The notes beneath the pieces were generated by a model that saw only the letters and a program-made list of their open reading frames with translations, was not told the DNA's origin and searched no databases. DNA of 64,000 nt from an uncultured Spirochaetota bacterium (GTDB lineage: Bacteria; Spirochaetota; Spirochaetia; SZUA-6; Fen-1364). Of this stretch, positions 4,615-38,803 are shown piece after piece. Within the stretch, counting starts at the first letter, position 1; each line of letters starts with the position of its first letter. The position numbers were made by a program, and so were the translations under genes. Location of the stretch: positions 146,747 to 210,746 of the forward strand of contig CAVTHO010000009.1 of assembly GCA_963734545.1 (NCBI GenBank), in the 5' to 3' direction.

Positions 4615-4640
4615 TCTGCAACCCCCGGCACAATCAGGGT

Positions 4641-5591
4641 GTGCCAGGCGGTCATGAACGGGAAAGCGCGGGCCACGCCTCCGCGGTACGGGCCTACTAC
4701 GAGAGCAACACGCGGCTCTTTCTTGCGCTCGGCATCGGCAGGCGGACGCTCGCCATCCGGCGGGCCGTGTGGGCGGATGGGGTGGATGATCTCGCCGCGG
4801 CCGTGAACTACGTAAACGGCCTTGTTGCGGCCGAAGCGAGGCTGGCCGCGACAAAGGACGGCGCGCTTCGGATTCTCGATATCGGCTGCGGTGTCGGAGG
4901 CAGCCTGCTCTTCCTTGCCGGCGCGGTGAATACGCCGCTCCAGGGGATCGGCGTCACCATCAGCCCGCGGCAAGCCGTCATTGCACGAAGACAGGCGCGC
5001 ATCCGGGGGCTTTCCTCAAGGTGCTCTTTCATCGCGGCGGATTTCGCGCGCCTCACCGGTCTTCCCCGGTTCCCTCTCTCCTTCGCCATCGAGTCATTCG
5101 TCCATTTCACCGCGCCGGCAGAGTTCTTCACCGCGGCGGCAAGATCGCTTGCGCCGGGAGGACGTCTGATGGTGATCGACGATTTCCTCGCCGGTGACCG
5201 GCATTCGCCCAGGGAACGCGGGCTTGTCAGTGCCTTCCGGCAGGGGTGGCTTCTGCCTTCGCTCTGCACGGTCAGGCGCGCGGTCCAGTGCGGCGCTGAA
5301 TGCGGCATGCGCCTGGTGGAAGATCGCGACCTGAGCAGTTTCCTTTCCCGAAAACCCGCAGGCTCGCGGATAGGAAAACCCGCAGGCTCGCGGATGGGAA
5401 AACCCGCAGGCTCGCGGATGGGAAAACCCGCAAGCTCGCGGATGGGTTGGTGGGCCGTGCGCGTCATGCGCGCGCTTCCCGTGCCGTGGCCTTACTGGAG
5501 AAGCACGATGGGAAGCCTCGCCCTGGAAGCCTGCAGGCGGGCAGGGCTGGTCGAATACCATGTCCTCGTGTTCGAGAACCAGCGGGCATGA
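4641..5591 (+). CDS. Class I SAM methyltransferase (CMAS/RebM/SMT-like N-region) with a C-terminal 8-aa tandem repeat
   Basis: Motif I LRILDIGCGVGGSLLFL follows a YYESNTRLFLALG...AVWADG region typical of small-molecule C-/O-methyltransferases. The in-frame repeat KPAGSR(I/M)G occurs four times. The start is uncertain because the divergent MFS start lies only 26 bp away. Confidence 0.65.
   Translation: MPGGHERESAGHASAVRAYYESNTRLFLALGIGRRTLAIRRAVWADGVDDLAAAVNYVNGLVAAEARLAATKDGALRILDIGCGVGGSLLFLAGAVNTPLQGIGVTISPRQAVIARRQARIRGLSSRCSFIAADFARLTGLPRFPLSFAIESFVHFTAPAEFFTAAARSLAPGGRLMVIDDFLAGDRHSPRERGLVSAFRQGWLLPSLCTVRRAVQCGAECGMRLVEDRDLSSFLSRKPAGSRIGKPAGSRMGKPAGSRMGKPASSRMGWWAVRVMRALPVPWPYWRSTMGSLALEACRRAGLVEYHVLVFENQRA
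5349..5444. repeat. 24-bp tandem repeat x4 (GAAAACCCGCAGGCTCGCGGATGG), in-frame inside the methyltransferase CDS
   Basis: Read directly from the sequence: four near-identical units with 1-2 substitutions. Confidence 0.9.
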
Positions 5592-5592
5592 C

Positions 5593-6216
5593 ATGCGCCG
5601 CCTCATGACGGCAGCAGCCTGGAGCGGAATAGCAGGGCCGATCCTCTTCGCCGGCGCGCTGGCCGTCCTCTCATTCGTGGAGCAGGACTTCATGCGCACC
5701 CTTGGCTGGGAGCCGCTCACCGCGGCCACTCGTGACTGGCCCAGCGGCCTGGCCCTGGGTCCCGGGGGCATTGTCATGACCGCGGCGTTCGTCGCATGCG
5801 GGCTGCTCCTCGTGCTCTTCGCGGCCGGACTCCGGCGGGCGTTTCCTGCCGCCCCCGTCTCGGCCCTTGCCGCTATTTTCATGGCCCTGGCTGGATTGGC
5901 CATGAGCTTTCTCGCGTTCTCCACCGACCCCACGAACAGCCAGGGACCCGCCACCCTGCACGGCCGCATCCACGATGCGGCCTTTATTGCTCTCGGTGCA
6001 ACGCTTCTTGTATCGCTCGTGGCCTTTGGTTTCGTATTCCGCACGGACAGGAAGTGGAGCGCGAATGCGGTCATCTCGTGGGTGACGGCGGCGTTGATCG
6101 TCCCGTCATTCACGGCCAAGGGAATCGTCTTCTACTTCTTTCTTGCCTCGTACCTGGTCTGGTGTGAGGCGGCTGCCGTCCGCCTCCTGCGACGCATCGG
6201 CGCTCCGCCTACTTGA
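5593..6216 (+). CDS. Integral membrane protein (DUF998-like), hypothetical
   Basis: Six predicted TM helices. The ATG at 5593 directly follows the methyltransferase stop (ATGACATG). Confidence 0.5.
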   Translation: MRRLMTAAAWSGIAGPILFAGALAVLSFVEQDFMRTLGWEPLTAATRDWPSGLALGPGGIVMTAAFVACGLLLVLFAAGLRRAFPAAPVSALAAIFMALAGLAMSFLAFSTDPTNSQGPATLHGRIHDAAFIALGATLLVSLVAFGFVFRTDRKWSANAVISWVTAALIVPSFTAKGIVFYFFLASYLVWCEAAAVRLLRRIGAPPT

Positions 6217-6811
6217 ACATGTCCACCGTGTCCTGCTTCTTCCTTGCCTGCGCATAGGCAGCGTCGACCTCTTCGTCCTCGAGATATCTGCGGAGATCCG
6301 CCGCCTGCTCGGTGGTGAACACGATCTGGTCGCTGCTGGCAAAGGCTGCGGCGGTCCGCATGACAAGCGTGATGCGCAGCGCGTCTGCGCCCTCCAGCCG
6401 CGCGCTGAAAACGAGCTTGACCTCGCGCGTGCCCTGCGCATCCCATCCCTCGCCGCGGCGGAACATCTGCGCAAGGTCGATCGTGGTGATCTCACGGGTG
6501 ATTTCCACGTTGTTGTCCATCGCGAGCCGCGCCCACTCCTGGAACTTCGCAACGGCTTCACGGAGGGAGGCACGCGCGGGACCTTCCACGATCATCCCGT
6601 ATCGCGGCGCGGAGCTGCCGAAAAGATTCTGTACGCTGATGGCAATGATCCCCGGGTTGTCGGCAAAGGCGAGGAATGTGAGGCCCCGCCTGCTGTCCTT
6701 GATCTGGCCGTAGACCACCGACTGGCCGGTCGGGACCGGGCTCCAGGGAGGCAGGCTCGAACAGCCGGCAATCAGAACCAAGAGAAGGACAAAGACGAAC
6801 GACTTACGCAT
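6209..6811 (-). CDS. Lipoprotein, hypothetical
   Basis: Signal peptide with a lipobox (LVLIAGCSS). No recognisable catalytic motif. It lies directly downstream of the GH5 gene on the same strand, 3-nt gap. Confidence 0.6.
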   Translation of the reverse strand: MRKSFVFVLLLVLIAGCSSLPPWSPVPTGQSVVYGQIKDSRRGLTFLAFADNPGIIAISVQNLFGSSAPRYGMIVEGPARASLREAVAKFQEWARLAMDNNVEITREITTIDLAQMFRRGEGWDAQGTREVKLVFSARLEGADALRITLVMRTAAAFASSDQIVFTTEQAADLRRYLEDEEVDAAYAQARKKQDTVDMFK

Positions 6812-6814
6812 TGC

Positions 6815-8569
6815 TCACTCCCGCTCCAGCTCGATCTGCTCCAGAATCGCCTCGCAGGGCCCCCGGCCGGACCATCGGGGCTCGATTGCGGCGATGCCTT
6901 GTTCGATGGAGAGCTCGGTGGCTACCGGCTGCGGGGAGCTGCCGGTGGCGGGAGAGGCCGCTCCGTAGCTCCAGTCCGCAACAGCGCCTTTGCCGTCGTA
7001 CGCGACGACTTCCAGGCTCACCGAACCCGAAGGACTCGGGACAGCCGCCGGAATCACGACTGCCCGCGCTGCCAGCCGGAGCTTCTCTCCCGGCTTGACC
7101 GGTATGCGATACCCTGTGCCGAGCGCCCAGTCCCGGGTCCCGCGATGCAGGAGGTGAACGGCCGTGGGGGCTCCCGCGGCATCATAGTCTATTCGAAGCG
7201 TGCCCGCTCCCGGGTCCCGGGTCCACAGCATCCCCCAGTCCTCGATGGGCATGATCAGCTTCGGCATCGAGCCTGCATTGAAGCTTTCAAGGGGCACCGG
7301 CTCCCGCGCGCTCGTTCCGCTGACCATTTCCAGGCCCAGGGCCTGGAGGCAGCCGACATCGACGGTACGTCCCTTGAAATGCGCCCTGTCCCGGTAATCC
7401 ACCATGCCCAATCCCTGGTCGTACTCCCACATCGCCCACCCAATATGCAACACCTCGAGGCTCGTGCGGACGTCTGAAATCCAGCGCAAACGATCCTCCG
7501 CGGGCGCCACCTTCTTGTAGACGCCGAACTCACCGCAGAACACGGGAACGCTGTGTGAGCTGCCCCAGTCGGCAGCTCGCGAAAGCTCCTTTCGAATCCG
7601 GGCCGCGTCCCAGCGCTCCTGGCCATACCAGCGGACCTGCTCGCGCGCTTTCGCGTCCCGCAGAATGCCGGCCGCCGCCGCAACCGCTTCAGGGCTCGAA
7701 GGATACGGGATGCCGGCAAGCTGCTTCTGGATCTCGCCGGTCCACTCGGCGCCCTGGTGGGTGAAGGTGAAAGGCTCATACCAATGGAAACTGTAGACGA
7801 CGTTCCCGTCCGCAAGGGGCTTCAGGGCGAGAAGACCATTGATGCCTCCCCATGACTCCCCGGTCGCGATGATCGTGCTCTGCGGGGCGCCGCGCCTGAT
7901 TGCCTCTGCCAGGCGCTCCTGCGCGGGAGGCCACCAGCCGGCGTCTATCTTTTCCACGGTGGACAGGTGCGGCTCGTTCATGACCTCGAAAAAAACGCGC
8001 TCTGTCGAGTAGGCGGCGTATCGGCGCGCAAGGGCTTCCCAGAAGCTTTCGACCCTGGACCTGAAAGCAGCATCGTGCGCCAGCCTGCTTTCAAAATCGT
8101 TGTTCGAGGAGGCGCCGTGAATCGGGTCCACGATCACGGCGAGCCCCGCATCGAGGGCCATGCGGACGGCTTTGTCCACGTACCGGATGGGGTCCAGAAA
8201 TGTTTCCGGCACGGCGTCGTTGTAGAGGACTTCGGGCGCAATGGTCAGCCGGACGACGCTGATGCCGGTTTCCTTGATCAGGGAGAAGTCGCTCTCCGTG
8301 AGCCGGTGTGCGTAGCGTTTCGGGTCGGAGTATGAGGAAAACCAGTTGTCGATATTGATGCCGCGTGCAAGGAGCTGCAGCCGGGCAGAGGGAACACCCC
8401 CGCTCCAGAGCATTGGCGAGGCGAGAATGGCGAGCACGATCGCAAGAGTAACACGCTGCACGGTGACAGGGTATGTCTTCAGACTCGCCCCGGCAAGACC
8501 GGTCCGGAAAGTCGGAAAAAACCGGATTCGATTTTCCGTGCTTTCCATTCCGGTTCTGGTATAATTCAC
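6815..8569 (-). CDS. Glycoside hydrolase family 5 (endoglucanase/mannanase-like) with a C-terminal beta-sandwich domain
   Basis: Catalytic acid/base FEVMNEPH and nucleophile VFCGEFGV. GINIDNWFS is typical of GH5. N-terminal signal peptide. Confidence 0.8.
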   Translation of the reverse strand: MNYTRTGMESTENRIRFFPTFRTGLAGASLKTYPVTVQRVTLAIVLAILASPMLWSGGVPSARLQLLARGINIDNWFSSYSDPKRYAHRLTESDFSLIKETGISVVRLTIAPEVLYNDAVPETFLDPIRYVDKAVRMALDAGLAVIVDPIHGASSNNDFESRLAHDAAFRSRVESFWEALARRYAAYSTERVFFEVMNEPHLSTVEKIDAGWWPPAQERLAEAIRRGAPQSTIIATGESWGGINGLLALKPLADGNVVYSFHWYEPFTFTHQGAEWTGEIQKQLAGIPYPSSPEAVAAAAGILRDAKAREQVRWYGQERWDAARIRKELSRAADWGSSHSVPVFCGEFGVYKKVAPAEDRLRWISDVRTSLEVLHIGWAMWEYDQGLGMVDYRDRAHFKGRTVDVGCLQALGLEMVSGTSAREPVPLESFNAGSMPKLIMPIEDWGMLWTRDPGAGTLRIDYDAAGAPTAVHLLHRGTRDWALGTGYRIPVKPGEKLRLAARAVVIPAAVPSPSGSVSLEVVAYDGKGAVADWSYGAASPATGSSPQPVATELSIEQGIAAIEPRWSGRGPCEAILEQIELERE

Positions 8570-8586
8570 AAAGGATAGGAGATTGC

Positions 8587-8793
8587 ATGGGTGACAAGAG
8601 CATGTTCTGTGCCTACCATGCAGAATGTCCGTTTTTCAACGTCGCTGACGCATCCGAGCTCGTGAAAGTGCTGAGGCACCTGATCTGCCTCCGCACGCAT
8701 ACGAAGTGCGAGATCAGGACAGAGCTGCTGTCCGGCAACAAGGTTCCCGCGGACGCGCATCCCAACATACGCCTGGCGAAATGGCTCAACTGA
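8587..8793 (+). CDS. Small Cys/His-rich hypothetical protein (68 aa)
   Basis: ATG preceded by the AGGAGA RBS. Motifs FCAYHAEC and ICLRTHTKC suggest a metal-binding protein. It sits in a local AT-rich patch between convergent genes. Confidence 0.4.
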   Translation: MGDKSMFCAYHAECPFFNVADASELVKVLRHLICLRTHTKCEIRTELLSGNKVPADAHPNIRLAKWLN

Positions 8794-8840
8794 CAAGAGC
8801 CGCCGGGCCGGTCATCCCTTCATAAGCGGACGGCACACAC

Positions 8841-9470
8841 CTACAGCGAGCGGCAGAACCGGACCATCTCCCGAACCGCCTCGGCCATGTTCTGCGCGTA
8901 CGTGCGGCCTGAGCTCTTGCGCGGCTTGAACGAGTGGTCCCCGTCTTCCAGATATGCCACCCGAATCGCGGCAGACAGCGTGTAGCCGGCAATCTCCTCC
9001 CGGGTCCCGAGCGTATCCCGGGTGCCCTGAAGGATAAGCGTGGGGGTCTTGAGATCCTTCAGGTGCGCCACTCGAAGACTGGCCGGTCTTCCCGCCGGAT
9101 GAAACGGGTAGCCCAGGCAGACCAGACCTTTCACACCGAGCCCGTCCGCCACCATGCTGGCAATCCGTCCACCCATCGACCTTCCGCCAATCACCAGCTC
9201 TGACGGCGAGCCGAGCTGATCCACGACGCCGGCCCAGCAATCCTGCAGCACCTTCGGCGCATCAGGGGCGGTTCTCCTGCCCGTCTTTCGAAACTCCTGC
9301 ATGTAGGGGAACTCGAACCTGATCACTTGAATGGACTCACCGACCAGCGCGTGCGCCATTTCTTCCATGGGCGGAGAGTCCATGAGCGACCCGGCTCCGT
9401 GCGCAAGAACCACGCGCAGCCAGGGCTTCCCGGCTTCCGGGGTGTCGATCAGCAAAGGTACAGTACTCAC
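8841..9470 (-). CDS. Alpha/beta-hydrolase fold protein (COG3571-like predicted hydrolase)
   Basis: GRSMGGRIASM nucleophile elbow (GxSxG) and VVLAHGAGS. The probable start is the GTG at 9470, preceded by GGAGGAGG, so the listed ORF is extended at the N-terminus. Confidence 0.7.
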   Translation of the reverse strand: MSTVPLLIDTPEAGKPWLRVVLAHGAGSLMDSPPMEEMAHALVGESIQVIRFEFPYMQEFRKTGRRTAPDAPKVLQDCWAGVVDQLGSPSELVIGGRSMGGRIASMVADGLGVKGLVCLGYPFHPAGRPASLRVAHLKDLKTPTLILQGTRDTLGTREEIAGYTLSAAIRVAYLEDGDHSFKPRKSSGRTYAQNMAEAVREMVRFCRSL

Positions 9471-26351: not shown

Positions 26352-27981
26352 ATGGTGCACAGCATCGCCATCGCCGATGTCCCCTCCACCACACCCCTGT
26401 TCGCCGATTTCTGGAAAGGAAAGGAAACCTTTCGCGGCCTTCTTCCCCGGCATTTCATGGATCCGCGCGCCTTCTCGGAGCAGGCCGGCCTGCTTGCCCG
26501 CGCCCGCTACGACCGCGGCACGCTGTGCACGGTGCTCCGCGAGCAGAACGAAAGGTTCGGCGCGGGCGCACAGACGCTGCGGTCCATCGACGCGCTGGAG
26601 GGGCCCGGCTCCATGGTCGTGATCGGAGGTCAGCAGGCCGGGTTGTTCGGCGGCCCCCTCTACACGGTGCACAAGGCCCTGACGATCATCGTGCTCGCCC
26701 GCAGGATGGCGAAACAACTGCGACCGGCCGGTGATCCCCGTGTTCTGGATCGCCTCCGAGGACAGCGATCTCGCGGAGGTGAATCACACCTTCGTTGTCG
26801 ACAGGGACGGTCGGCTGCGGGAGCTTCGTCTGCACGAAGCGGTGGAAGCGAAGCTTCCGGTCTCCCGTGTGCGCCTCGGGGAGGAGATCGGGCCGCTCAT
26901 GAACGAGCTGGCCGCCGCGCTTCCCGAGGCAGATGGCGCGGAGAATGTACTCGCCGACCTGCGGGCGGCGTACGCCCCCGGCCGCACCTATCCGCAGGCC
27001 TTCGGCTCCTGGATGACGAATCTCTTCGGCGAGCAGGGACTGGTGCTCGTCGATCCTTCCGATGTCCGGCTGAAACGGATGGCGCATTCGCTTTTCGAGC
27101 GCGAGATCAGGGAGAACAGCCCGGTGAGCGCCGCGGTCATCGCGCAGACCCGCCGGATGATCGAGGCGGGATACGCGCCGCAGATCGAGCTGCGGGAAGG
27201 GTTCCTCACTCTTTTCCACCAGGACCCTGCCCGGCAGGCCATCGCGCTCCGCAGGAACGGATTCGAGCTGAAGTCGACCGGGAAGACCTTTACAGCGGAG
27301 GAGCTCGCCGGTCTCCTGGAGCGCAGCCCGGAGAGCTTCACTCCCAACGCGGTGCTGCGTCCCCTGTACCAGGACACGCTCTTTCCCACGCTGGCTGCGG
27401 TCCTCGGTCCATCGGAGATCGCCTACTTCTCACAGCTCACGCTGGCCTATGAGCGGATGGGCATCCCGATGCCGATCGTTTTTCCCCGCTCCTCCCTCAC
27501 CCTGGTGGAACCGAAAATGGAGAAGCTCATGGCCAGGCTCGGCGTGGGCCTGAGGGACCTCCTCGTGCGCGGGGAACGAATAATCGACGACATATTGAAG
27601 AGAGACATTCCCGAGTCCCTCACCACGCGGGTCATGGAGGGCAGGGCCTCTGTGACGGCAGCCTGGAAAACGATCATCGGCGAGATCGACACGCTTGATC
27701 CCACGCTGCATCGGACGGCGGAACTGGGATCAGGCAGGGCCCTGCGCCAGTTCGATTTCATGGAAAAGAAGATCGCGCAGGCAGCCCGGAAAAAGAACGG
27801 GATCCTCCGCGGGCAGGTGGAGAGGCTCGTCGCCGCCCTGGCGCCCAGGAACGGCCTGCAGGAGAGGACGCTCACGGCGCTCCCCTTTCTTGCGCGCTAC
27901 GGAAAACAGATTCTCACCCAGGCAGCGGAAGGCATCGATCCGTTCGCCCCCGAGCACAGGGGGCTGGTGGTGGATCAATGA
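26352..27981 (+). CDS. bshC: Bacillithiol biosynthesis cysteine-adding enzyme BshC, with an apparent frameshift near 26725 (CCGG duplication)
   Basis: N-terminus and MVVIGGQQAGLFGGPLYTVHKALTIIVLARRMAKQL in frame 0, then PVIPVFWIASEDSDLAEVNH and the rest of BshC in frame +1. Removing one CCGG restores R-P-V-I. Confidence 0.8.
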
Positions 27982-28700
27982 CGCTGGACATACTGGCATT
28001 CGGCGCGCATCCGGATGACGTGGAGCTGGCCGCGAGCGGTACCCTGATCAAGGCGGGACGCGGCGGCGCGAAAACGGGCGTGATCACCCTCACCCGCGGA
28101 GAGATGGGCACGCGCGGCACTCCCGCCGCGCGGGCGGCTGAGTTCGAGGCGGCAGGTGACGCGATGGGTCTCACTCATCGGGAAATGCTCTCCCTGCCGG
28201 ACGGCAGGCTGGCCCCGGACCAGGGGGCAAAGGAAGCCGTGGTTCGGGAGATCAGGGAGCATCGGCCGCGCATCGTCCTTCTGCCCTATTGGGAGGACAG
28301 GCATCCCGATCACGGCGCCGCTTCACGCATCATCCAGGAGGCGGCATTCCTGGCGGGACTTCGCAAGCTGGAAACCGGCCAGGAGCCGCACCGCCCGTCC
28401 GAGCTTGTCTACTACATGGCCAGCTGGGAGTTCGAGCCGAGCTTTATCGTCGATATCAGCGACGTGATCGAGGACAAGATCAAGGCGATCCAGGCATACG
28501 GCACGCAAGTGCACAATCCGGGCTACGCGGGGAACGAGCCGCCCACCTTCATCTCCAGCCAGCACTTCCAGGAGCTGCTCATGACCCGCATGGCCCACTA
28601 CGGACACCTCATCGGAAAGAAGTACGGGGAGCCCTTCCGCATCAAGGGTCTGATCGAGGTGAAAGACCTGCTGGAGTCTTTCGGAAGCCGGACGTTTTAG
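27978..28700 (+). CDS. bshB: LmbE-family N-acetylglucosaminyl-malate deacetylase
   Basis: LAFGAHPDDVELAASGT and HPDH zinc-binding motifs of the PIG-L/LmbE family. Its start overlaps the bshC stop (ATGA). Confidence 0.85.
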   Translation: MTLDILAFGAHPDDVELAASGTLIKAGRGGAKTGVITLTRGEMGTRGTPAARAAEFEAAGDAMGLTHREMLSLPDGRLAPDQGAKEAVVREIREHRPRIVLLPYWEDRHPDHGAASRIIQEAAFLAGLRKLETGQEPHRPSELVYYMASWEFEPSFIVDISDVIEDKIKAIQAYGTQVHNPGYAGNEPPTFISSQHFQELLMTRMAHYGHLIGKKYGEPFRIKGLIEVKDLLESFGSRTF

Positions 28701-28987: not shown

Positions 28988-31930
28988 CTAATGGCCCGTT
29001 GGCCCTGAAGGCTTATCTGCGCCTTGCTTCAGAATGATGGTCGCACCCCCTGGCACACCCGACGTCTGCTTTAATTCGATGGAAGCGCCGTTTTCTAGAA
29101 TCTTGATTACCCTCTGCTCCTGGACCACGCGGAACTCAACCGACCGGCTTTCTCCTCCCGTGAGCGCGAGATCGAAAGACTCGGGCTCAATTCTATGGTA
29201 GCTCGGAAGCTGTCCCCCTGCGATACGAAGCACATAGTTTCCCGGTCGCACATCCTGGAAGCTGAAATCCCCATTGGGGCTCGTCAGCTTTCGCCGAATC
29301 TCGGCACCGTTGGCTATTTCGATGATCACGTTTCCGAGGCCCCCGAGTCGTGCGCGATTGGTTTCCCCTGATTCTGCGCCCGATCCTTTCTGATCCAACG
29401 GAAGGTAGGCGCCGGCCTCGTCCGGGAACCCGTACACGCCGACGTTCCCCGTGACCGAGCAACTCTTGATCATCCCTATGGCGAGGGAAATCGTCGACCC
29501 GCTCGGTGCCGTCACCGCCAGAGGCATCGGTTCCACTGGCACCATACCGGGTCTTACGGTCGCCAAATCCACGTGGACGTACTTGGTTCCCGATTGGGGA
29601 AGGTAGAACGTGAACCGTCCCTTCGCATCGCTGAGCGCCGCAAGGCCGTCCAGACGGAGCAGGACCCCTGGCATGGGCTCATCAGTCGAGGCGTTGTACA
29701 CGCGACCCGTTACAGTTGCCGTATCCGGCTTTCGGCTGATCGGCAGATCGAATGGCACCCCATAAGTGAGTTGCAGAGAATAATAGGGCGTCCAGGACTC
29801 CGGATCATAGGTGAGTCCGACATCAAGCTGCGCCGTGAGAGTAGTGCCCCATGAGAAGGCAGTCGTGAGTTTGGCTCCGACGGACGCCAGAAGCTCGGTG
29901 AAACCCGCCTGGCTGAAAATGTAGCTGTTGCCGGCCTTTGCTTCCAGCTGGGTTTTCGCTTTCGAGTATCGAGCGTCCACCTGCCAGCCCGCAACATGTG
30001 AAGCATTCCCGTTTGAATCCAGCCTGCCGTTGTAGAGGAGCGAAGCGGCATACCATGCCGTATCGGCTGGTTGAAACTCGAAAGAGAGGTTGTGCTGTTG
30101 CTCCAGGGACGAAACCCCATTTGCTTTATCGAACTCGAAGCCTGCCGAGGACGCAAGGCCGATGGCGAACGGCTTGAGGGGCTGGCGCAGCGAGAGTCGG
30201 AAGATGTTTTGCCAGGAGTCATATCTCGGCGCGGGAAGCCTGTCTATGCGTCGCCAGTTTTCCCAGTCCAGCCTGAGCCGCATGCCCCACCGTGGTATTT
30301 CTCCCTCCGCGCCCAGAGAGATCTCCATGGTCCGATCTGCCGACAGTTGCGCAGGATCAAGGAGCAGGTTGGCATCAGCCATCGAGAAGCCGCCGTGCAG
30401 GGTGAGGAAGGGGGGCAGGACGCGCACGTGGACGAGCGTACGCAGGGATTGTGTGTCGCTGAACGTTCCCTGAAAACCAGGCCATGCCCTGACGAATCGC
30501 GCGGTCCAGGAAACAGGTTCGAGATTGCCCTGGGACCATGCAAAGACCGCCGGGCGGAGGCTGCCGGAAGTATCGTCCTGGATCGCCGTGTCAAGCTGAA
30601 ACTGGAGGTTCTCCGTCGGATTGTATTGCTGCATCAGGCCGAAGGAAATGCTGTCCGTAATCGGCGAGAAGGCGCTCAGCCCCGCGCGGTACACCACGTC
30701 GTCCCATTGCCCCGATCGGGGAATCGTGAAGTCAGCGGTCCCGCCTATCGCCTGCGCCCCCTGCGGCGACCAGACGTCCTTGTAGTACAGGCCGCCGAAA
30801 CGAAACGGGGAGAGGTTCACCATGCCCCGGATTCCCCGGCCGAACACGTCCTCAGCGAGCAGCGGAGAGATCGCGTAGGGGAGATCCCCCAGCCCCAGCT
30901 CGCCGTAGCGACTCTCGTACTGGAAGCTGTAGCGGTCCGTCGGATTGAAGAGCGGATCAAAAGTGGTGTCGACCCGTTTGCGAAGCTCCAGATCGACTCT
31001 GTGCTCGCCGGCCTCGTCTATGGTGCCATGAGCTTTCACGGATTCCTCGAGACCCGCGGTCAGCTTCTGGTCATAGCCGCTTAAAATTGTCGTCTCGGTG
31101 AAAAACGGCACCGCGTGCGAGAGGATCCTGGCGTCGACCGAAAGTGGGACGACCTCGACAGAGCTTGCGGCAATTGCCAGCGGTGCGCCTGGTCCCGTGG
31201 CTCCAGCTTCCTCAGCCGGATGTAGGCGCACGGTGACCTGGAGGGGGTGGAGCACAGACGTGACCAGCAGCGGGTCCGTACGCACCGCGATGCTGAACAC
31301 TTTTACATCACCGGCAGGCACGATCGTCCCCGCCGCGCCCCCAAGACCGCTGATCTTGAACGGGAACAGGGACCCGCTCGTCACGTCAACCTCGACCTCA
31401 ACGTCCGTGTTCCCGGTGTTGGAAATAACAAAGGATGTCGTGTATTCCTTGCCGGCAATCACGAAAGAGGGGCGTTCCAGGAGCTTCAAATCGAGGGCAA
31501 CCTCGGGCAGGACACGTACTTTGAGGTCGCACCCCGCGCTGAGCGTCGGGTCGTCGAGGTCTTTCACCCGGTACGCAACGACGTACTCTGCGGCGGCGGC
31601 ACGAGACGGAACGAGGAAAGAGACCACGTGAAGGTCGGTCGCCGAAGGCGCCAGGACGAACGGTCCCTCCTGCGTGAGCGCCTTCCAGCCGGGAGGAAGC
31701 GAAGGCTCGAGAATCAGCGTGCGGGCCTGCGGGCCGCTGTTTGATACGGACAGCGCGAAGGTGACTGCCTGCCGGGTATGAACCTCGAGAAGATCCACCC
31801 CTGTCGTCCTCACGGTGACCGGCAGATTCTCCGCACCGGCCGTGGTTGCGACTGCCAGCAGGAGAATCGGGATAAGGCGGCGGAGCACCTTACTGCTTGA
31901 GCACGAGGGTAACGTTGGCGCCGAATACAT
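28988..31930 (-). CDS. Large secreted/outer-membrane protein with three regions; candidate usher-like component
   Basis: N-terminal CARDB/NEW3-like beta-sandwich region. Central ~450-aa amphipathic beta-strand (barrel-like) region. Two C-terminal carboxypeptidase-regulatory-like domains (TGRVYNASTDEPMPGVLLRLDG...AKGRFTF; NGDFSFQDVRPGNYVLRIAGG). The GTG at ~31888 gives an ideal signal peptide (VLRRLIPILLLAVATTAGA/ENLP). Confidence 0.6.
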   Translation of the reverse strand: MYSAPTLPSCSSSKVLRRLIPILLLAVATTAGAENLPVTVRTTGVDLLEVHTRQAVTFALSVSNSGPQARTLILEPSLPPGWKALTQEGPFVLAPSATDLHVVSFLVPSRAAAAEYVVAYRVKDLDDPTLSAGCDLKVRVLPEVALDLKLLERPSFVIAGKEYTTSFVISNTGNTDVEVEVDVTSGSLFPFKISGLGGAAGTIVPAGDVKVFSIAVRTDPLLVTSVLHPLQVTVRLHPAEEAGATGPGAPLAIAASSVEVVPLSVDARILSHAVPFFTETTILSGYDQKLTAGLEESVKAHGTIDEAGEHRVDLELRKRVDTTFDPLFNPTDRYSFQYESRYGELGLGDLPYAISPLLAEDVFGRGIRGMVNLSPFRFGGLYYKDVWSPQGAQAIGGTADFTIPRSGQWDDVVYRAGLSAFSPITDSISFGLMQQYNPTENLQFQLDTAIQDDTSGSLRPAVFAWSQGNLEPVSWTARFVRAWPGFQGTFSDTQSLRTLVHVRVLPPFLTLHGGFSMADANLLLDPAQLSADRTMEISLGAEGEIPRWGMRLRLDWENWRRIDRLPAPRYDSWQNIFRLSLRQPLKPFAIGLASSAGFEFDKANGVSSLEQQHNLSFEFQPADTAWYAASLLYNGRLDSNGNASHVAGWQVDARYSKAKTQLEAKAGNSYIFSQAGFTELLASVGAKLTTAFSWGTTLTAQLDVGLTYDPESWTPYYSLQLTYGVPFDLPISRKPDTATVTGRVYNASTDEPMPGVLLRLDGLAALSDAKGRFTFYLPQSGTKYVHVDLATVRPGMVPVEPMPLAVTAPSGSTISLAIGMIKSCSVTGNVGVYGFPDEAGAYLPLDQKGSGAESGETNRARLGGLGNVIIEIANGAEIRRKLTSPNGDFSFQDVRPGNYVLRIAGGQLPSYHRIEPESFDLALTGGESRSVEFRVVQEQRVIKILENGASIELKQTSGVPGGATIILKQGADKPSGPTGH

Positions 31931-32699
31931 CCTCGTCCCCGCAATCGACGACGATCAGGGCTTTGTAGGAAGGATCCTGGACACCGATCAGATCCACCGT
32001 GAACCGCACCGAGGTCCCCGGATACATCCTCTGTTTCCCGCCGTCGAACTTGCCGACTTTGGTCCCCCTGGAATCGTAGAGCTCGGCCCACAGAGTGCCG
32101 CGCAGCCATCGCTCACCCGTGTTTTGCACGTCGACGAGGAGTAGTCTCTTTTCTTTTTCGCTGACCAGACTGATCTGGCTGAACTTCAAGAGCCGGGTGC
32201 CGGTGGCACCTATGTGGGTCACGATCTGGACCGCGTAGCGCAGCACCTGGCTCACCCCCACGCCGGTGTTCTTCGGCCCGGGCTGGCTGGACTCCGCGGA
32301 CCCTTCCGGGACGGGCTCCACCATGACAACGCTCCAATAGGTCCCGGCCAGCGTTGCATCATTCGGCACCTGGACGCTGAAGTGCAGCGACACGGTCTCA
32401 TTCGGCGGGATCGTAACCTGCTGGGGAGACAGCGTCATCCAGCGGGCATTGGACCTCGGGAGCGCGCCGGGATCTCCGTAGAGCACCTTCCCATCCGCAT
32501 AAAAGAAATAGTCGGTCTGGTAGGTCTTGATCTCCTGCGGCGTTTTCTCGGGATTCTTTACATCGATGGAGCCTTCATAGGTGCGTCCCGGCGCCACCTC
32601 GTACTCACGAGTGAGCGATCCTGTAACGATGATCCCCGCGTAACACGCAAGCGGCGCAGCGAGCAAACCAACCATGACGGCAACGATGCGAACGTTCAT
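31890..32699 (-). CDS. Secreted ~270-aa protein; candidate PapD-like periplasmic chaperone
   Basis: Signal peptide MNVRIVAVMVGLLAAPLACYAG and a GGAGG RBS. Segments RWMTLSPQQVTIPPNETVSLHF and GTYWSVVMVEPVP resemble the PapD N-domain motifs (PPlfrl..tlRi; lfwlNvkeIPp). Call is tentative. Confidence 0.45.
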   Translation of the reverse strand: MNVRIVAVMVGLLAAPLACYAGIIVTGSLTREYEVAPGRTYEGSIDVKNPEKTPQEIKTYQTDYFFYADGKVLYGDPGALPRSNARWMTLSPQQVTIPPNETVSLHFSVQVPNDATLAGTYWSVVMVEPVPEGSAESSQPGPKNTGVGVSQVLRYAVQIVTHIGATGTRLLKFSQISLVSEKEKRLLLVDVQNTGERWLRGTLWAELYDSRGTKVGKFDGGKQRMYPGTSVRFTVDLIGVQDPSYKALIVVDCGDEDVFGANVTLVLKQ

Positions 32700-32717
32700 A
32701 TTCCTCCGGCTCATCTG

Positions 32718-33263
32718 TCAGAACTCCGTCACGGTGTACGTGACGCTCGTTACATCGCTGGGCGTCACCAGATTGGGAGCAGACACGCCACGAATCTGAA
32801 GCTGGCATCGGATGTTTCTCACTGCTGTTCGGGTGTTGCAGCGGAAAAGCTCCGTGGGGACGTTCGTGACCTGCTGATAGACATTCAAGGGTCCGACGAG
32901 GTTGCCCGCGGGGGTGCCATTGTTGGTACGCCGGATCCACAATTGCAGGTTGGCGCCCCAGGTGGCGGTATAGGTCCTGCTGACAGTGACTACCCACCCC
33001 GTCATCCCGCCCGTGAATGGAGCGTTCACTCGCAAAACAGTCTGGTTGGCCGCACTGGTGTAGGTGGTTGTGGTAAAATCTCTTCCCGCTGCCGGAACCG
33101 GTGAGGGCGCGGCCGGGATGGTGACCGTCCAACCGCCGGCGCCGGTCGAGATCACCAAGGCCAGCGGGACGGCGGGCTCTGCGACAACAAGCAAAAACAG
33201 CAGATTGAGAACTAGGCTCCCCGCTCGAACCGGCTGTGGAAGGGATGAAAAAAAATCGCGCAT
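32718..33263 (-). CDS. Small secreted Thr/Val-rich protein (181 aa); candidate minor fibre subunit
   Basis: Hydrophobic N-terminal signal-like region; two Cys (CNTRTAVRNIRC). It follows the attenuator and lies 3 nt upstream of the next gene. Confidence 0.45.
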   Translation of the reverse strand: MRDFFSSLPQPVRAGSLVLNLLFLLVVAEPAVPLALVISTGAGGWTVTIPAAPSPVPAAGRDFTTTTYTSAANQTVLRVNAPFTGGMTGWVVTVSRTYTATWGANLQLWIRRTNNGTPAGNLVGPLNVYQQVTNVPTELFRCNTRTAVRNIRCQLQIRGVSAPNLVTPSDVTSVTYTVTEF

Positions 33264-33264
33264 G

Positions 33265-33312
33265 CGAAAAAAAACGGAGAGGGCCGGATCGAGGCATTAC
33301 GCCTCTCCACTA
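33265..33312 (-). terminator. Intrinsic terminator/attenuator between the first and second genes of the secreted-protein operon
   Basis: On the minus-strand RNA, GGAGAGG-[loop]-CCUCUCC forms a hairpin immediately followed by U8. Confidence 0.55.
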
Positions 33313-33338
33313 GCCCTTCCGTCCTTTCAGTGGTCGGC

Positions 33339-33878
33339 CTAGCTGGCGTCGGTCAATGTGAAGGTCACGGTGACCAGGTGGTTGTCGCCCACAGCGAGGT
33401 TCGCGACAGTATCCACTTGCAAGGTGTACGTCAGCTGCGCTCCATTGGCAGCCTGGCCGGTGACGCAGCTCGGAATCGCCGTGACGATGTTCAGCGCAGC
33501 CGCGCCAATCGTGACAGCTGCACCCGCAGTCCCGCAACCGCCGGTGACCGAGGTCGCCTGCACGTGCAGAGAGGTGCCGGCAGGCGCGGCATCAGCGCCA
33601 CCCCACTGCACGGAAATGTTCCTGTTGGTTCCGGTGGCATTTACCGTGGTATACCACAGATATTTGCTGTTGTCCGTTTGGCCGACAGGGGCCAGTCCTC
33701 CTGCTGCCGGAGCCTGCACGCTCAAAGTGACCGTGGCAACGTTGTTAAGGCTCATCATGACGATTTCAGGCACATTCAGCTGAACCGAATGGGCTGCCGA
33801 GCTGGTTGCGGCAAACGCGCCGGCACCTACAAACAGACAAAGAGCGGCAATTAATAGAGTTTTTCTAATGAAGTTCAT
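33339..33878 (-). CDS. Small secreted Thr/Val/Ala-rich protein (179 aa); candidate major fibre (pilin-like) subunit
   Basis: Strong RBS AAGGAGGACGAAAAATG. Signal peptide MNFIRKTLLIAALCLFVGAGAFA/ATSS. Two Cys in the mature part. It is the first gene of the operon and is followed by the attenuator. Confidence 0.55.
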   Translation of the reverse strand: MNFIRKTLLIAALCLFVGAGAFAATSSAAHSVQLNVPEIVMMSLNNVATVTLSVQAPAAGGLAPVGQTDNSKYLWYTTVNATGTNRNISVQWGGADAAPAGTSLHVQATSVTGGCGTAGAAVTIGAAALNIVTAIPSCVTGQAANGAQLTYTLQVDTVANLAVGDNHLVTVTFTLTDAS

Positions 33879-33994
33879 TTTTCGTCCTCCTTGCTTCTCA
33901 GAACCGGAACGCGTGTTCGCTCACCCGGCCTCTACAAGGAGTATAGTCTCCGCTTTCGCGTAATTCCAGAAAAAGCCCTGCTATTTTCGCCTAT

Positions 33995-34300
33995 CTAGCT
34001 GTTCGTCGCCACCATGTCATAGTCGGTGAACACGACATCCCCGCCGACCAGCTCGGGAGAGTAGACCGATTCGAATCGTTTCACGGCCGCCGATTCACCG
34101 TGGGCCCTGTGCGCAGCCTCGTTGTCGAATATGAAGAAGTGCACGAAGCGTGTCGCATCTTCCTTTTGCTGCCACGCCACGTACAAGCGCGTGCCGGGTT
34201 CGTTGGCTTTCACGAAGCGGACAAACTCCTCGATTGACCTCTTCACCCTATCTACTGCTCGGGCGTTCACCCGGTATTCGGCGATTTGATAGATTGCCAT
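33995..34300 (-). CDS. Antibiotic-biosynthesis-monooxygenase (ABM/Dabb) fold protein
   Basis: ~100-aa ferredoxin-like protein: YVAWQQKEDATRFVHFFIFDNEAAHRAHGES. Confidence 0.6.
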   Translation of the reverse strand: MAIYQIAEYRVNARAVDRVKRSIEEFVRFVKANEPGTRLYVAWQQKEDATRFVHFFIFDNEAAHRAHGESAAVKRFESVYSPELVGGDVVFTDYDMVATNS

Positions 34301-34419: not shown

Positions 34420-35777
34420 CTACAGAGCGGCACCGTTTGAGGCGATCACCCTCTGATACCAGTTTGCGCTCTTTTTCCACGTGCGCGCCTGCGTATGAAA
34501 GTCGACGTGGGTAATCCCGAACCGTTTGCTGAACCCGTACGCCCATTCGAAGTTGTCCATCAGCGTCCAGAGAAAGTAGCCTTCCAGCCTCACCCCGTCA
34601 TTGATGGCCCGGTGGGCCTCGGAAAGGTGGGTGGATATGTAGTCGATCCTGTCGTCGTCCTGCACCTGCCCATCCACGACCAGATGGTCAGGAAAGGCAG
34701 CTCCGTTCTCCGTGATGACAATGACCGGGTCGTCATACTCCTTCTTCACCTGCATGAGGATATCGTACAGCCCTTCCGGAAACACCTCCCAGCCCATCTC
34801 CGTCCGCTCGCACTCTTTTCGGAGCGCATGTTGGTACCCGAGGAAGCCTCCCGCGTCGCTCGCGTACACCCTTTCGGGGAAGTAGTAGTTCAGGCCGATG
34901 AAATCAACGGGGTTCGTTTTCAACAGCTCGAAGTCCTGCCGCTCCGTGTGAGGAGCCACTTTGTTCCTGGTATACAGGCTCAAGATGTCGTCTGGATACG
35001 AGCCCTTCAGGACAGGGTCCAGAAACCAGCGATTGGTCTTGCCGTCCGCGAGCCGGGCCGCCTCGATGTCCGACACACCGTCGGTGAATGGATAGACCGG
35101 GTGAACGTCCAGGGCGATGCCGATCCGGTGCTTGCCGGGACTCAGCTGCCGATAGGCCTGTACGCCGAGGGAATGCGCGTGCAGGAGGATGTGCGACGCC
35201 TGCACCGCCGCGCCGAAGTCCTTCAGCCCCGGCGCATGGATTCCCATCTGCATGACCGGCGAACGAGGACACCTGGGGCTCGTTGAGCGTCATCCAGATT
35301 TTCACCCGGTCACCGAGCCGCATGAAGACCGATGCGGCATAGTCGGCAAACCAGCTTGCCGTGTCCCGATTGGTCCAGCCTCCCCTGTCCTGAAGTGACT
35401 GCGGCAAGTCCCAGTGATACAGGGTGGCGGCAGGTTCGATACGCGCCTCCAGCAGCGCGTCCACGAGGGTCTCGTAGAAATCCAATCCTCTTGGATTGTG
35501 CCTTCCGTTTCCCATCGGAAACACGCGCGGCCAGGAAATGGAGAACCGGTAGGACGCCGAGCCCGAGGTCCCGCATGTTCTCGATGTCGTCCCGCCACCT
35601 GTGGTAGTGATCGCAGGCAAGGACCCCGGTCTCCCCGGTCTCGATGGCGCCGGGCACCTGGCAGAAGCGGTCCCAGATCGACTCGCCCTTTCCATTCTCC
35701 CGTGCGGCGCCCTCGATCTGGTAGGCGGCAGTGGCTGCTCCCCAGAGAAACCCCGTCGGAAAACCGCTTGAAGGCAT
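34420..35777 (-). CDS. bglB: GH1 beta-glucosidase, spread over three frames (two apparent frameshifts near 35235 and 35580)
   Basis: [15 protein letters not shown]...[20 protein letters not shown]...WMTLNEP (acid/base), [11 protein letters not shown] (nucleophile), [14 protein letters not shown] lies 9 nt upstream of the ATG at 35777. Confidence 0.8.
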
Positions 35778-35916
35778 GGATTCATTATAGAAACGGCAGT
35801 CCGAGGTGTCAAACAACACTCCGGATTGCGGTGGACCATGCATATCATTAAACCGGTTTGACCGGGAGAGCATCCTTCCGTATCTTAGATTCAAAAGATA
35901 TTCTTCCGGAGCAAAC

Positions 35917-38482
<2,566 letters not shown>

Positions 38483-38496
<14 letters not shown>

Positions 38497-38803
38497 GCGG
38501 CCGGTCCAGCCTCCGGACCGCCGCTGCTGCCTCGAGGGGAACCTGGAAGACCTTGTGCGGCGATGCTCCGCCGAGCTTCAACACCACGCTGCCCGGCGGA
38601 ACGCCGAGGGCTTTTGCCAGGACCCTCGCGACCTCTCCATTCGCCCTGCCCTTTTCGGCAACCGCCCGGACCGAGACGTGGAGCTCCGCGCCGCGGACGC
38701 CGAGAACAGAGTCCTGCCGCGCCCCCGGCTTCGCCTTGACCTTCAGGGTCACGAAATCGGCGTGAATTGAATAGAAGCCTCCCGGATCAGCCAACGCGGT
38801 CAC
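38483..38803 (-). CDS. DUF167 (YggU/UPF0235) family protein
   Basis: [44 protein letters not shown] pattern. Confidence 0.6.

What the first reader, a model, noticed from the sequence alone, without database searches (positions are those of the whole stretch)
28988..33878. Four-gene operon of signal-peptide proteins resembling a chaperone-usher fibre system, with an internal attenuator after the first gene
The minus-strand order is: a 179-aa and a 181-aa Thr/Val/Ala-rich secreted protein; a 274-aa secreted protein whose segments (RWMTLSPQQVTIPPNETVSLHF, YWSVVMVEPVP) resemble PapD-like chaperone N-domain motifs; and a 980-aa protein with an N-terminal beta-sandwich, a central amphipathic beta-barrel-like region and two C-terminal beta-sandwich (CarbopepD_reg-like) domains. 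This reproduces the major subunit / minor subunit / chaperone / usher logic. A GC hairpin plus U8 lies between the first and second genes (33265-33312), as in fimbrial operons that over-produce the major subunit. The genes are tightly packed (3-nt and overlapping junctions). None of the four has a confident family assignment from motifs alone, so this may be an undescribed surface-fibre or secretion-assembly system.
Basis: partly seen in the sequence, partly recalled or inferred. Interest (0 to 1): 0.8.

Follow-up and report, generated by a model that had tools for sequence, protein, structure and literature searches.

The report
New chaperone-usher-like surface fibre operon
This four-gene operon most likely encodes an undescribed type of chaperone-usher-like machine that exports small subunits, probably as a surface fibre; it occurs in at least 14 bacterial phyla, and its chaperone is related to the WxL-interacting proteins of Gram-positive bacteria.

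Summary
Four co-directional, tightly packed minus-strand genes sit at 33878-28988: A (179 aa), B (181), C (274) and D (980). A strong hairpin plus U8 lies between A and B.

- **D (usher-like):** two N-terminal Ig-like domains, a barrel of about 26 strands, and two C-terminal sandwich domains. Full-length FimD and PapC are its best Foldseek matches (E 1e-13). It does not match Pfam Usher, and I saw no plug domain.
- **A and B (subunits):** they have no Pfam or NCBIfam family. They share a homologous C-terminal half. Their last beta-strand ends at the extreme C-terminus.

The A(n)-B-C-D order recurs in about 80 loci from at least 14 diderm phyla. Terminator-like hairpins are enriched after A genes. 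I found no description of the module.

Most likely it is a new class of chaperone-usher-like assembly system. Fibre formation and donor-strand exchange are inferred, not shown.

The parts
33886..33892 (-). Shine-Dalgarno AAGGAGG, 7 nt upstream of the ATG of gene A. It is the only strong ribosome-binding site in the operon.
   Evidence: Sequence read.
33339..33878 (-). Gene A: 179-aa secreted Thr/Val/Ala-rich protein, the putative major subunit. The mature protein starts with a long alternating beta-strand segment and ends in ...VTVTFTLTDAS.
   Evidence: ORF. No Pfam or NCBIfam family. Family alignment A3. Homologous to B in the C-terminal half. The terminal strand lies 1-6 residues from the C-terminus in 131 of 144 A sequences.
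33267..33327 (-). Intrinsic-terminator-like hairpin (GC-rich stem GGAGAGG...CCTCTCC with an inner stem) followed by U8 at 33274-33267. It ends 3 nt before the ATG of B and is a putative attenuator that sets the A:B/C/D ratio.
   Evidence: -37.9 kcal/mol, z -2.95. Equivalent hairpins follow A genes in other phyla. No Rfam match.
32718..33263 (-). Gene B: 181-aa secreted protein, the putative minor subunit (initiator, adaptor or terminator). Family motifs are GxWxxTID, WRVDVxK, LYVRRTSDG and YSTTVxYTVxD.
   Evidence: Alignment A4. No Pfam family. hhalign to A: 96% probability, E 3.7e-9.
31890..32714 (-). Gene C: 274-aa periplasmic two-domain PapD-like / WxLIP-like chaperone. Domain 1 covers about aa 29-168 and domain 2 about aa 176-271. 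A flexible loop (136-159) precedes the last strand of domain 1. There is no C-terminal membrane helix.
28988..31930 (-). Gene D: 980-aa usher-like outer-membrane protein (whole gene).
31148..31819 (-). D, aa 38-261: two N-terminal Ig-like (PapD-like clan / NPCBM_assoc-type) domains, presumed periplasmic docking domains.
   Evidence: DSSP. Pfam hits among 36 family members: NPCBM_assoc, FixG_C, Cep192, HYDIN, ASH and MSP. The first domain aligns to domain 1 of C at 92.5% probability, but the aligned stretch includes the signal peptide.
29732..31120 (-). D, aa 271-733: transmembrane beta-barrel of about 26 predicted strands, with no plug-sized insertion.
29105..29719 (-). D, aa 738-942: two C-terminal CarboxypepD_reg-like beta-sandwich domains, in the position of usher CTD1 and CTD2.
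   Evidence: Pfam PF13620, E 2.3e-10, two stretches. 36 of 36 family members hit it. DSSP.

Best explanation
The four genes encode a chaperone-usher-like assembly system of a class that has not been described.

**Proposed mechanism**
1. All four products are exported by Sec.
2. In the periplasm, the soluble two-domain chaperone C captures the small subunits A and B. It most likely does so by lending a beta-strand (the last strand of its first domain, RYAVQIVTHIG, which follows a flexible loop) to an incomplete beta-sandwich whose final strand is the subunit's extreme C-terminus.
3. C delivers the subunits to D, a barrel of about 26 strands in the outer membrane with two periplasmic Ig-like domains on each side.
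4. At D, the N-terminal strand of the next subunit replaces the chaperone strand, and the growing A polymer is threaded to the cell surface.
5. B, a paralogue of A present once per operon, acts as a minor subunit that starts, adapts or terminates and anchors the fibre.
6. The strong ribosome-binding site of A and the leaky terminator after it make A far more abundant than B, C and D.

**Evolution.** C is a true homologue of the WxL-interacting proteins of Firmicutes. Those clusters lack an outer-membrane component, and their chaperone carries a membrane anchor. The WxL clusters therefore look like the single-membrane counterpart of this module.

**Shown:** gene arrangement, conservation, the folds of C and D, C-WxLIP homology, A-B homology, and the presence and recurrence of the hairpin.

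**Inferred:** subunit fold, donor-strand complementation and exchange, polymerisation, topology of the D domains, and terminator function.
For: - **Operon anatomy:**
- **C homology:** hhalign to WxLIP gives 97.6%, E 4.7e-12, over 216 columns spanning both domains. 43 of 62 members weakly hit Pfam WxLIP_PGBD.
- **D architecture:** two Ig-like domains, an approximately 26-strand barrel, two sandwich domains.
- **Subunits:** A and B are homologous (96%, E 3.7e-9). They are secreted, 140-160 aa when mature, and rich in alternating Thr/Val strands. The last strand ends 1-6 residues from the C-terminus in 131 of 144 A and 55 of 65 B sequences. Tandem A paralogues are common.
- **Conservation:** the A(n)-B-C-D order holds across about 80 loci in at least 14 phyla.
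- **Family size:** the C family has 733, 1927 and 5939 50%-identity clusters at E <= 1e-30, 1e-10 and 1e-3.
- **Regulation:** terminator-like hairpins are enriched after A genes.
- **Precedents:** AF2 predicts a WxLIP strand inserting into WxL (PMC10599100). The PDB holds a WxL-WxLIP complex, 9i25. CPR Pam pili use membrane-anchored PapD-like chaperones and donor-strand exchange (bioRxiv 10.64898/2026.03.03.709456).
Against: - No structure was obtained for A or B, so the key feature (an incomplete Ig fold plus an N-terminal donor strand) is untested.
- D does not match Pfam Usher. None of 36 members shows it among the 25 listed families.
- D has about 26 rather than 24 predicted strands and no plug domain.
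- The Foldseek TM-scores to ushers are low (0.23-0.37). Ig-rich ciliary proteins also score E about 1e-12, so part of the signal comes from generic Ig-like domains.
- The D model rests on only 10 sequences (pTM 0.54).
- C matches no PapD_N or PapD_C Pfam model.
- A and B show no significant profile similarity to WxL domains once signal peptides are removed.
- B has no visible ribosome-binding site, and terminator read-through is unmeasured.
- No experimental data exist for any member.
Confidence: 0.6

Rival explanations
1. Surface-display or secretion system without polymerisation. C chaperones A and B, and D translocates them. The subunits end up as monomers or small complexes attached to the cell surface, or are released, as currently proposed for WxL proteins held on the wall by WxLIP. 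No fibre forms.
For: The closest relatives of C are WxLIP proteins, whose partners are described as wall-bound surface proteins rather than fibres (PMC10599100 and PMC9772566). No two-domain adhesin-type subunit was found; the long A and B ORFs were ORF-calling artefacts. D has no plug domain and differs from ushers in strand number.
Against: The terminator after A and the strong SD point to a large excess of one subunit, as expected for a polymer. Tandem A paralogues are typical of pilins. The C-terminal strand placement matches the donor-strand logic. CPR pili show that PapD-like chaperones of this wider kind do build fibres.
Confidence: 0.2
2. An extremely divergent member of the known archaic (sigma) chaperone-usher pathway. 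Its proteins have drifted below the detection limit of the Pfam Usher, PapD and SCPU models, so nothing new in kind is present.
For: The folds of C and D match CU chaperones and ushers. Archaic CU systems are known to be phylogenetically widespread (PMC9452303 abstract). The C-termini of B (YSTTVxYTV) recall the terminal strand of spore-coat-U-type pilins; this comes from my memory of the family and was not tested.
Confidence: 0.1
3. An uptake or porin complex. D is a substrate channel. A, B and C are periplasmic or surface binding proteins, comparable to a Sus-like or TonB-independent nutrient system.
Against: There is no TonB box or plug domain. The neighbours are not conserved across loci apart from a sigma-54 response regulator in 28 of 84 loci. 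C has a chaperone fold, not a ligand-binding fold. The overall domain order of D matches ushers best.
Confidence: 0.05

Closest known systems
Chaperone-usher pili (classical Fim/Pap, alternative CFA/I, archaic Csu/CupE)
   Different: None of the four proteins matches Usher, PapD_N/C, Fimbrial or SCPU at the sequence level. D has about 26 strands and no plug. Its N-terminal part is two PapD-like Ig domains instead of the usher NTD, and its C-terminal domains are CarboxypepD_reg-type. The gene order is subunits-chaperone-usher. The hosts are mainly environmental Spirochaetota, Planctomycetota, Desulfobacterota, Ignavibacteriota, Zixibacteria and others.
WxL gene clusters of Firmicutes (small and large WxL proteins + WxLIP = DUF916/DUF3324 + LPXTG protein; Csc clusters of L. 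plantarum)
   Different: WxLIP has a C-terminal transmembrane helix, which C lacks. WxL clusters have no barrel protein but do have LPXTG proteins or sortase. A and B have no WxL Pfam hit and no significant profile similarity to WxL, although two motifs fall in the same order (WRVDVxK versus GWxLxVK; YSTTVxYTV versus YxxTLTWxL). WxL domains are about 91% Firmicutes (PMC9772566), whereas this module is found in diderm phyla.
Pam pili of Candidate Phyla Radiation bacteria (bioRxiv 10.64898/2026.03.03.709456)
   Same: These are recently found Ig-fold pilins assembled by donor-strand exchange with PapD/FimC-like chaperones, outside the classical CU families. They show that this chaperone principle is used far beyond Proteobacteria.
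   Different: Pam chaperones are membrane-anchored, and there is no usher because there is no outer membrane. Pam pilins are two-domain proteins reported as exclusive to CPR.

Membership tests
Chaperone-usher pathway (Pfam Usher PF00577; PapD_N PF00345 / PapD_C PF02753) | Periplasmic chaperone with two Ig-like domains in the PapD arrangement | tested here: met
Chaperone-usher pathway (Pfam Usher PF00577; PapD_N PF00345 / PapD_C PF02753) | Sequence membership of the outer-membrane protein in the Usher family | tested here: not met
   No Usher hit for the window protein at E <= 1. None among the 25 listed families for 36 D homologues at E <= 0.1.
Chaperone-usher pathway (Pfam Usher PF00577; PapD_N PF00345 / PapD_C PF02753) | Usher architecture: N-terminal periplasmic domain, 24-strand barrel with an internal plug domain, two C-terminal sandwich domains | tested here: inconclusive
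   The flanking domains and large barrel are present, and FimD and PapC are the best PDB matches. However, about 26 strands are predicted and there is no plug-sized insert. The model has pTM 0.54 and I could not inspect its coordinates.
Chaperone-usher pathway (Pfam Usher PF00577; PapD_N PF00345 / PapD_C PF02753) | Subunits with an incomplete Ig fold lacking the last strand, plus an N-terminal donor strand (donor-strand complementation and exchange) | not tested
WxL cluster (WxL PF13731; WxLIP_PGBD PF06030 + WxLIP_HBD PF11797) | WxLIP protein: DUF916 + DUF3324 tandem domains | tested here: met
WxL cluster (WxL PF13731; WxLIP_PGBD PF06030 + WxLIP_HBD PF11797) | C-terminal transmembrane helix on WxLIP | tested here: not met
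   C ends at residue 274, directly after the last strand of domain 2. The alignment to WxLIP stops before the roughly 60-residue tail of WxLIP.
WxL cluster (WxL PF13731; WxLIP_PGBD PF06030 + WxLIP_HBD PF11797) | Partner proteins carrying a WxL domain with two Trp-x-Leu motifs | tested here: inconclusive
   No WxL Pfam hit in 56 A or 57 B sequences. hhalign to 14-15 small WxL proteins gives 9-56% probability, depending on whether signal peptides are included. The motif order is similar. The WxL profile was small.
WxL cluster (WxL PF13731; WxLIP_PGBD PF06030 + WxLIP_HBD PF11797) | Monoderm host with LPXTG or sortase partner and no outer-membrane component | tested here: not met
   The module always carries the barrel protein D (75 of 82 loci have D directly after C). 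No LPXTG protein recurs nearby.

The most novel reading that the evidence does not exclude
This would be a fourth, previously unrecognised lineage of donor-strand (chaperone-usher-type) fibre machinery, widespread in environmental diderm bacteria. It would also be the ancestral or sister form of the Firmicutes WxL clusters. On that reading, WxLIP is a membrane-tethered assembly chaperone, and WxL proteins are donor-strand-complemented subunits left behind when the outer membrane and its usher were lost.
Probability: 0.4. Interest if true: 0.85.

Novelty: new variant of a known kind. Interest (0 to 1): 0.74.

Why it matters
- **Scope of the principle.** Chaperone-usher pili are a textbook paradigm, known almost entirely from Proteobacteria. 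A separate module built on the same principle, with hundreds to thousands of family clusters in at least 14 phyla, would extend that principle across the bacterial tree. Those phyla include Spirochaetota, Planctomycetota, Desulfobacterota, Ignavibacteriota, Zixibacteria, Armatimonadota and Synergistota.
- **A different usher design.** D has about 26 strands, no plug, and PapD-like N-terminal domains.
- **A mechanistic hypothesis for WxL clusters.** It links the diderm machine to the poorly understood WxL surface-protein clusters of enterococci, listeriae and lactobacilli, which are involved in virulence. The testable idea is chaperone-type strand donation by WxLIP.
- **Outer-membrane loss.** The comparison bears on how surface machines were remodelled when an outer membrane was lost.
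- **Experiments are feasible.** Two cultured hosts carry the module: Thiocapsa marina 5811 and Thiohalocapsa marina DSM 19078.

Tried and rejected
1. **PDB sequence searches** with C, the C profile and the A profile found nothing meaningful. The C-WxLIP link is visible only by fold and by profile-profile comparison.
2. **Word-indexed homologue searches for D.** Both were swamped by CarboxypepD_reg candidates and returned only 10 relatives. The D model therefore rests on a thin alignment. I recovered D homologues from the loci instead.
3. **A and B against WxL.** The first local hhalign runs gave 56-86% probability, but that was largely signal-peptide similarity. After trimming, it fell to 0.2-17%. 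I therefore do not claim WxL membership.
4. **Apparent long B and A proteins (318-434 aa).** They might have been two-domain adhesins, but they are longest-ORF artefacts in GC-rich DNA or a frameshift fusion.
5. **Sigma-54 promoter upstream of A in the window.** There is none, although 8 of 74 other loci have a canonical one before the first A gene and 28 of 84 have an NtrC-type regulator nearby.
6. **Exact look-up of the window D protein** gave no contig.
7. **Organism.** The window's organism stayed unidentified.
8. **AFDB fold library.** It was unavailable.
9. **Rfam.** It found nothing in the region.
10. **Lipoprotein reading of A and C.** I rejected it. There is no canonical lipobox, and the Cys is not conserved in the families.
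Full report
**1. What is in the sequence**

| Gene | Coordinates | Length |
|---|---|---|
| A | 33878-33339 | 179 aa |
| B | 33263-32718 | 181 aa |
| C | 32714-31890 | 274 aa |
| D | 31930-28988 | 980 aa |

- A is preceded by a strong Shine-Dalgarno sequence (AAGGAGG, 7-nt spacer).
- Downstream of A comes a GC-rich hairpin and a run of eight U. This ends 3 nt before the ATG of B.
- The 91-nt stretch folds at -37.9 kcal/mol, z = -2.95 against shuffles.
- B and C are 3 nt apart, with a GGAG inside the end of B.
- C and D overlap by 41 nt, or are 1 nt apart if D starts at the GTG at 31888.
- All four begin with signal-peptide-like segments. I judged these by eye, and they fit the models (helix 4-23 in C, disordered 1-35 in D).
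- There is no Rfam family in the region and no second copy of any of the four families in the window.
- The flanks are unrelated genes. Downstream, convergent, are bshB1 and bshC. Upstream are an ABM-domain gene and a GH1 beta-glucosidase.

**2. The genes form a conserved module**

- The C protein has 580 relatives in the word-indexed search.
- An exhaustive profile search found 733, 1927 and 5939 50%-identity clusters at E <= 1e-30, 1e-10 and 1e-3.
- I collected 84 loci and assigned their ORFs with profiles seeded from the window proteins.
- Among 82 non-duplicate loci, D directly follows C in 75 and B directly precedes C in 59.
- The order A(1-n)-B-C-D occurs in 50 loci. A(n)-C-D without a recognisable B occurs in 14, mostly Ignavibacteriota and Bacteroidota.
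- The record titles name Spirochaetota, Planctomycetota, Desulfobacterota ('Deltaproteobacteria'), Bdellovibrionota, Gammaproteobacteria (including the cultured Thiocapsa marina 5811 and Thiohalocapsa marina DSM 19078) and Ignavibacteriota/Bacteroidota.
- They also name Zixibacteria, Armatimonadota, Acidobacteriota, Synergistota, KSB1, Eisenbacteria, Riflebacteria and two 'Clostridia' MAGs.
- The only recurrent neighbour is an NtrC-type sigma-54 response regulator, in 28 of 84 loci.
- A canonical -24/-12 promoter precedes the first A gene in 8 of 74 loci and never precedes B, C or D. The window has neither feature.
- The window's closest C relatives are from Spirochaetales MAGs (61% identity). 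Its host is therefore probably a spirochaete, but that is an inference.

**3. C is a PapD-like chaperone and a homologue of WxLIP**

- With 62 sequences, the AF2 model is confident (pLDDT 92.9, pTM 0.83). It shows two beta-sandwich domains and a less ordered loop (136-159) before the last strand of domain 1.
- Pilus chaperones follow: CfaA 12.8, YadV 12.3, CupB2 11.8, SafB 11.8, CsuC 11.6, FimC 11.6 and PapD 10.5.
- Pfam gives only sub-threshold WxLIP_PGBD hits. These occur in 43 of 62 family members, and 4 also hit WxLIP_HBD.
- To test homology properly, I retrieved eleven WxLIP and fifteen neighbouring small WxL genes from annotated Firmicutes plasmids.
- The profile-profile comparison of the C family with WxLIP gives 97.6% probability, E 4.7e-12, over 216 columns spanning both domains.
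- C ends right after domain 2 and lacks the transmembrane helix that defines full-length WxLIP (PMC10599100). It should therefore be a soluble periplasmic protein.

**4. D is an usher-like outer-membrane protein, but not a member of the Usher family**

- The model (10 sequences; pLDDT 82.1, pTM 0.54) shows two Ig-like domains at aa 38-140 and 146-261.
- Next comes an uninterrupted run of about 26 long strands (271-733), then two sandwich domains (738-834, 860-942).
- Pfam confirms two CarboxypepD_reg domains.
- Across 36 homologues, Pfam finds CarboxypepD_reg in 36, NPCBM_assoc in 29 and PapD-like-clan Ig families (Cep192, HYDIN, ASH, MSP) in many. Porin_4 or OMP_b-brl appears in 12. Usher is not among the 25 families listed.
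- Foldseek over all PDB chains is more telling. Full-length FimD and PapC complexes fill the top ranks (E 1.2e-13 to 1e-12, about 780-950 aligned columns).
- The next outer-membrane barrels are six or more orders of magnitude weaker: OccK 1e-7, BauA 1e-6, LptD 2e-6.
- Caveats: TM-scores are low (0.23-0.37), and Ig-repeat ciliary proteins also reach E about 1e-12. Part of the score therefore reflects generic Ig-like domains.
- I saw no plug-sized insertion, and the strand count differs from the 24 of ushers.
- The first N-terminal domain of D aligns with domain 1 of C (92.5%), but the aligned stretch includes the signal peptide.

**5. A and B are paralogous small secreted subunits with no known family**

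- Neither they nor 56 and 57 homologues match any Pfam or NCBIfam model in a consistent way.
- The A profile finds nothing in the PDB by sequence.
- Their C-terminal halves are homologous (96% probability, E 3.7e-9).
- The mature proteins begin directly with conserved alternating-hydrophobic strand segments: A has TVTxxVxAIxEIxVxG and B has AIxIxVTGxWxxTI.
- They end with a conserved strand: A has TVTxTLTD and B has YSTTVxYTVxD.
- That final strand lies 1-6 residues from the C-terminus in 131 of 144 A and 55 of 65 B sequences.
- These are the features expected of donor-strand subunits. In that scheme the C-terminal strand lines the groove filled by the chaperone, and the N-terminal strand is donated to a neighbour. 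I could not model the subunits, so this remains an inference.
- Many loci carry several A paralogues, about 15 in one Bacteriovoracaceae locus. Such arrays are common for pilin genes.
- Comparison with small WxL proteins was not significant after signal peptides were removed, although two motifs occur in the same order.

**6. The attenuator**

- Using one fixed criterion (hairpin <= -10 kcal/mol ending within 3 nt of a T-rich octamer), such sites follow 30 of 140 A genes. They follow only 4 of 67 B, 10 of 83 C and 7 of 82 D genes. The odds ratio is 2.7 and p = 0.001.
- The positive loci include Spirochaetales, Pirellulales, Thiodiazotropha, Desulfobacterota and Ignavibacteria.
- The feature is therefore a recurrent trait of the module and not a peculiarity of this window.
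- Its function as a partial terminator that over-produces A is inferred.

**7. Mechanism proposed**

- The subunits are exported by Sec and captured by C through strand complementation.
- C delivers them to the periplasmic domains of D.
- The subunits polymerise by strand exchange and are extruded through the barrel.
- A is the bulk subunit and B is a once-per-fibre minor subunit.
- Precedents:
  - AF2 predicts a WxLIP hairpin strand inserting into WxL (PMC10599100).
  - A WxL-WxLIP complex is in the PDB (9i25).
  - CPR bacteria build donor-strand pili with membrane-anchored PapD-like chaperones and no usher (bioRxiv 10.64898/2026.03.03.709456).
- The main rival reading is the same export route without polymerisation, as in the current model of WxL surface complexes. 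Weaker rivals are a highly diverged archaic CU system and an uptake channel.

**8. Comparison and novelty**

- The module works like a chaperone-usher system, but it fails sequence membership for every defining CU family.
- It shares a true homologue (C/WxLIP) with the WxL clusters. It fails their other defining features: the membrane helix, the WxL domains, the LPXTG partner and the monoderm context.
- Six searches of the paper library found no description of the diderm module. The library is incomplete, so prior description elsewhere cannot be excluded.
- I rate it a new variant of a known kind. It combines an unexpectedly wide distribution with a link to WxL clusters that could redefine what WxLIP does.

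**9. Limits**

- There are no structures for A or B.
- The D model is built from a thin alignment, and I could not inspect its coordinates.
- There was no signal-peptide predictor.
- The organism is unidentified.
- The assembly around the operon contains frame-shifted housekeeping genes, so single-base details such as the U-run length and the B start may be imperfect.
- No experimental data exist for any member.

Noticed in passing
window 35806-38765 (+), 26352-27981 (+), 34420-35990 (-): clpB, bshC and a GH1 beta-glucosidase are each split over two or three reading frames. This points to indel errors in the assembly rather than real pseudogenes. The four operon ORFs are intact. An independent assembly of the same locus splits D into 805 + 179 aa.
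   Followed up: partly
window 26731-28700 (+): bshC and bshB1 (bacillithiol biosynthesis) lie convergent to the operon. That is notable if the host is a spirochaete, as the nearest C homologues suggest.
   Followed up: no
L043 (uncultured Bacteriovoracaceae), whole locus: About 15 A-type paralogues surround a single B-C-D set. Ignavibacteriota and Bacteroidota loci (L061, L062, L068, L069, L073, L075, L076) have 3-6 A genes, no recognisable B, and an extra A gene after D.
   Followed up: partly
L005 4235-5599 and 27 other loci; L005, L007, L015, L020, L022, L035, L054 upstream of the first A gene: An NtrC-type sigma-54 response regulator neighbours the module in 28 of 84 loci. A canonical TGGCAC-N5-TTGC promoter precedes the first A gene in 8 of 74 loci. 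Neither is present in the window.
   Followed up: partly
L007 (uncultured Treponemataceae), 1372-8920: Two modules sit in tandem on one contig: A-C-D followed by A-B-C.
   Followed up: no
L091 (B. anthracis pXO1, 4292-6053) and L093 (B. cereus plasmid): WxL + WxLIP gene pairs on Bacillus virulence and conjugative plasmids lie next to CpaF/VirB11-type ATPase genes. Of the 300 plasmid records with a WxLIP match, 169 are from Bacillus.
   Followed up: no
window 31511-31819 (D aa 38-140) versus C domain 1: The first N-terminal Ig-like domain of D aligns with the first domain of the chaperone C (hhalign 92.5%). Two D homologues weakly hit Pfam WxLIP_PGBD. This may be a chaperone-like domain built into the barrel protein, but the aligned stretch includes the signal peptide.
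   Followed up: partly
window 33995-34300 (-): A 101-aa ABM (antibiotic biosynthesis monooxygenase-like) gene lies directly upstream of A, in both this assembly and an independent one. It is not conserved next to the module in other loci.
   Followed up: no
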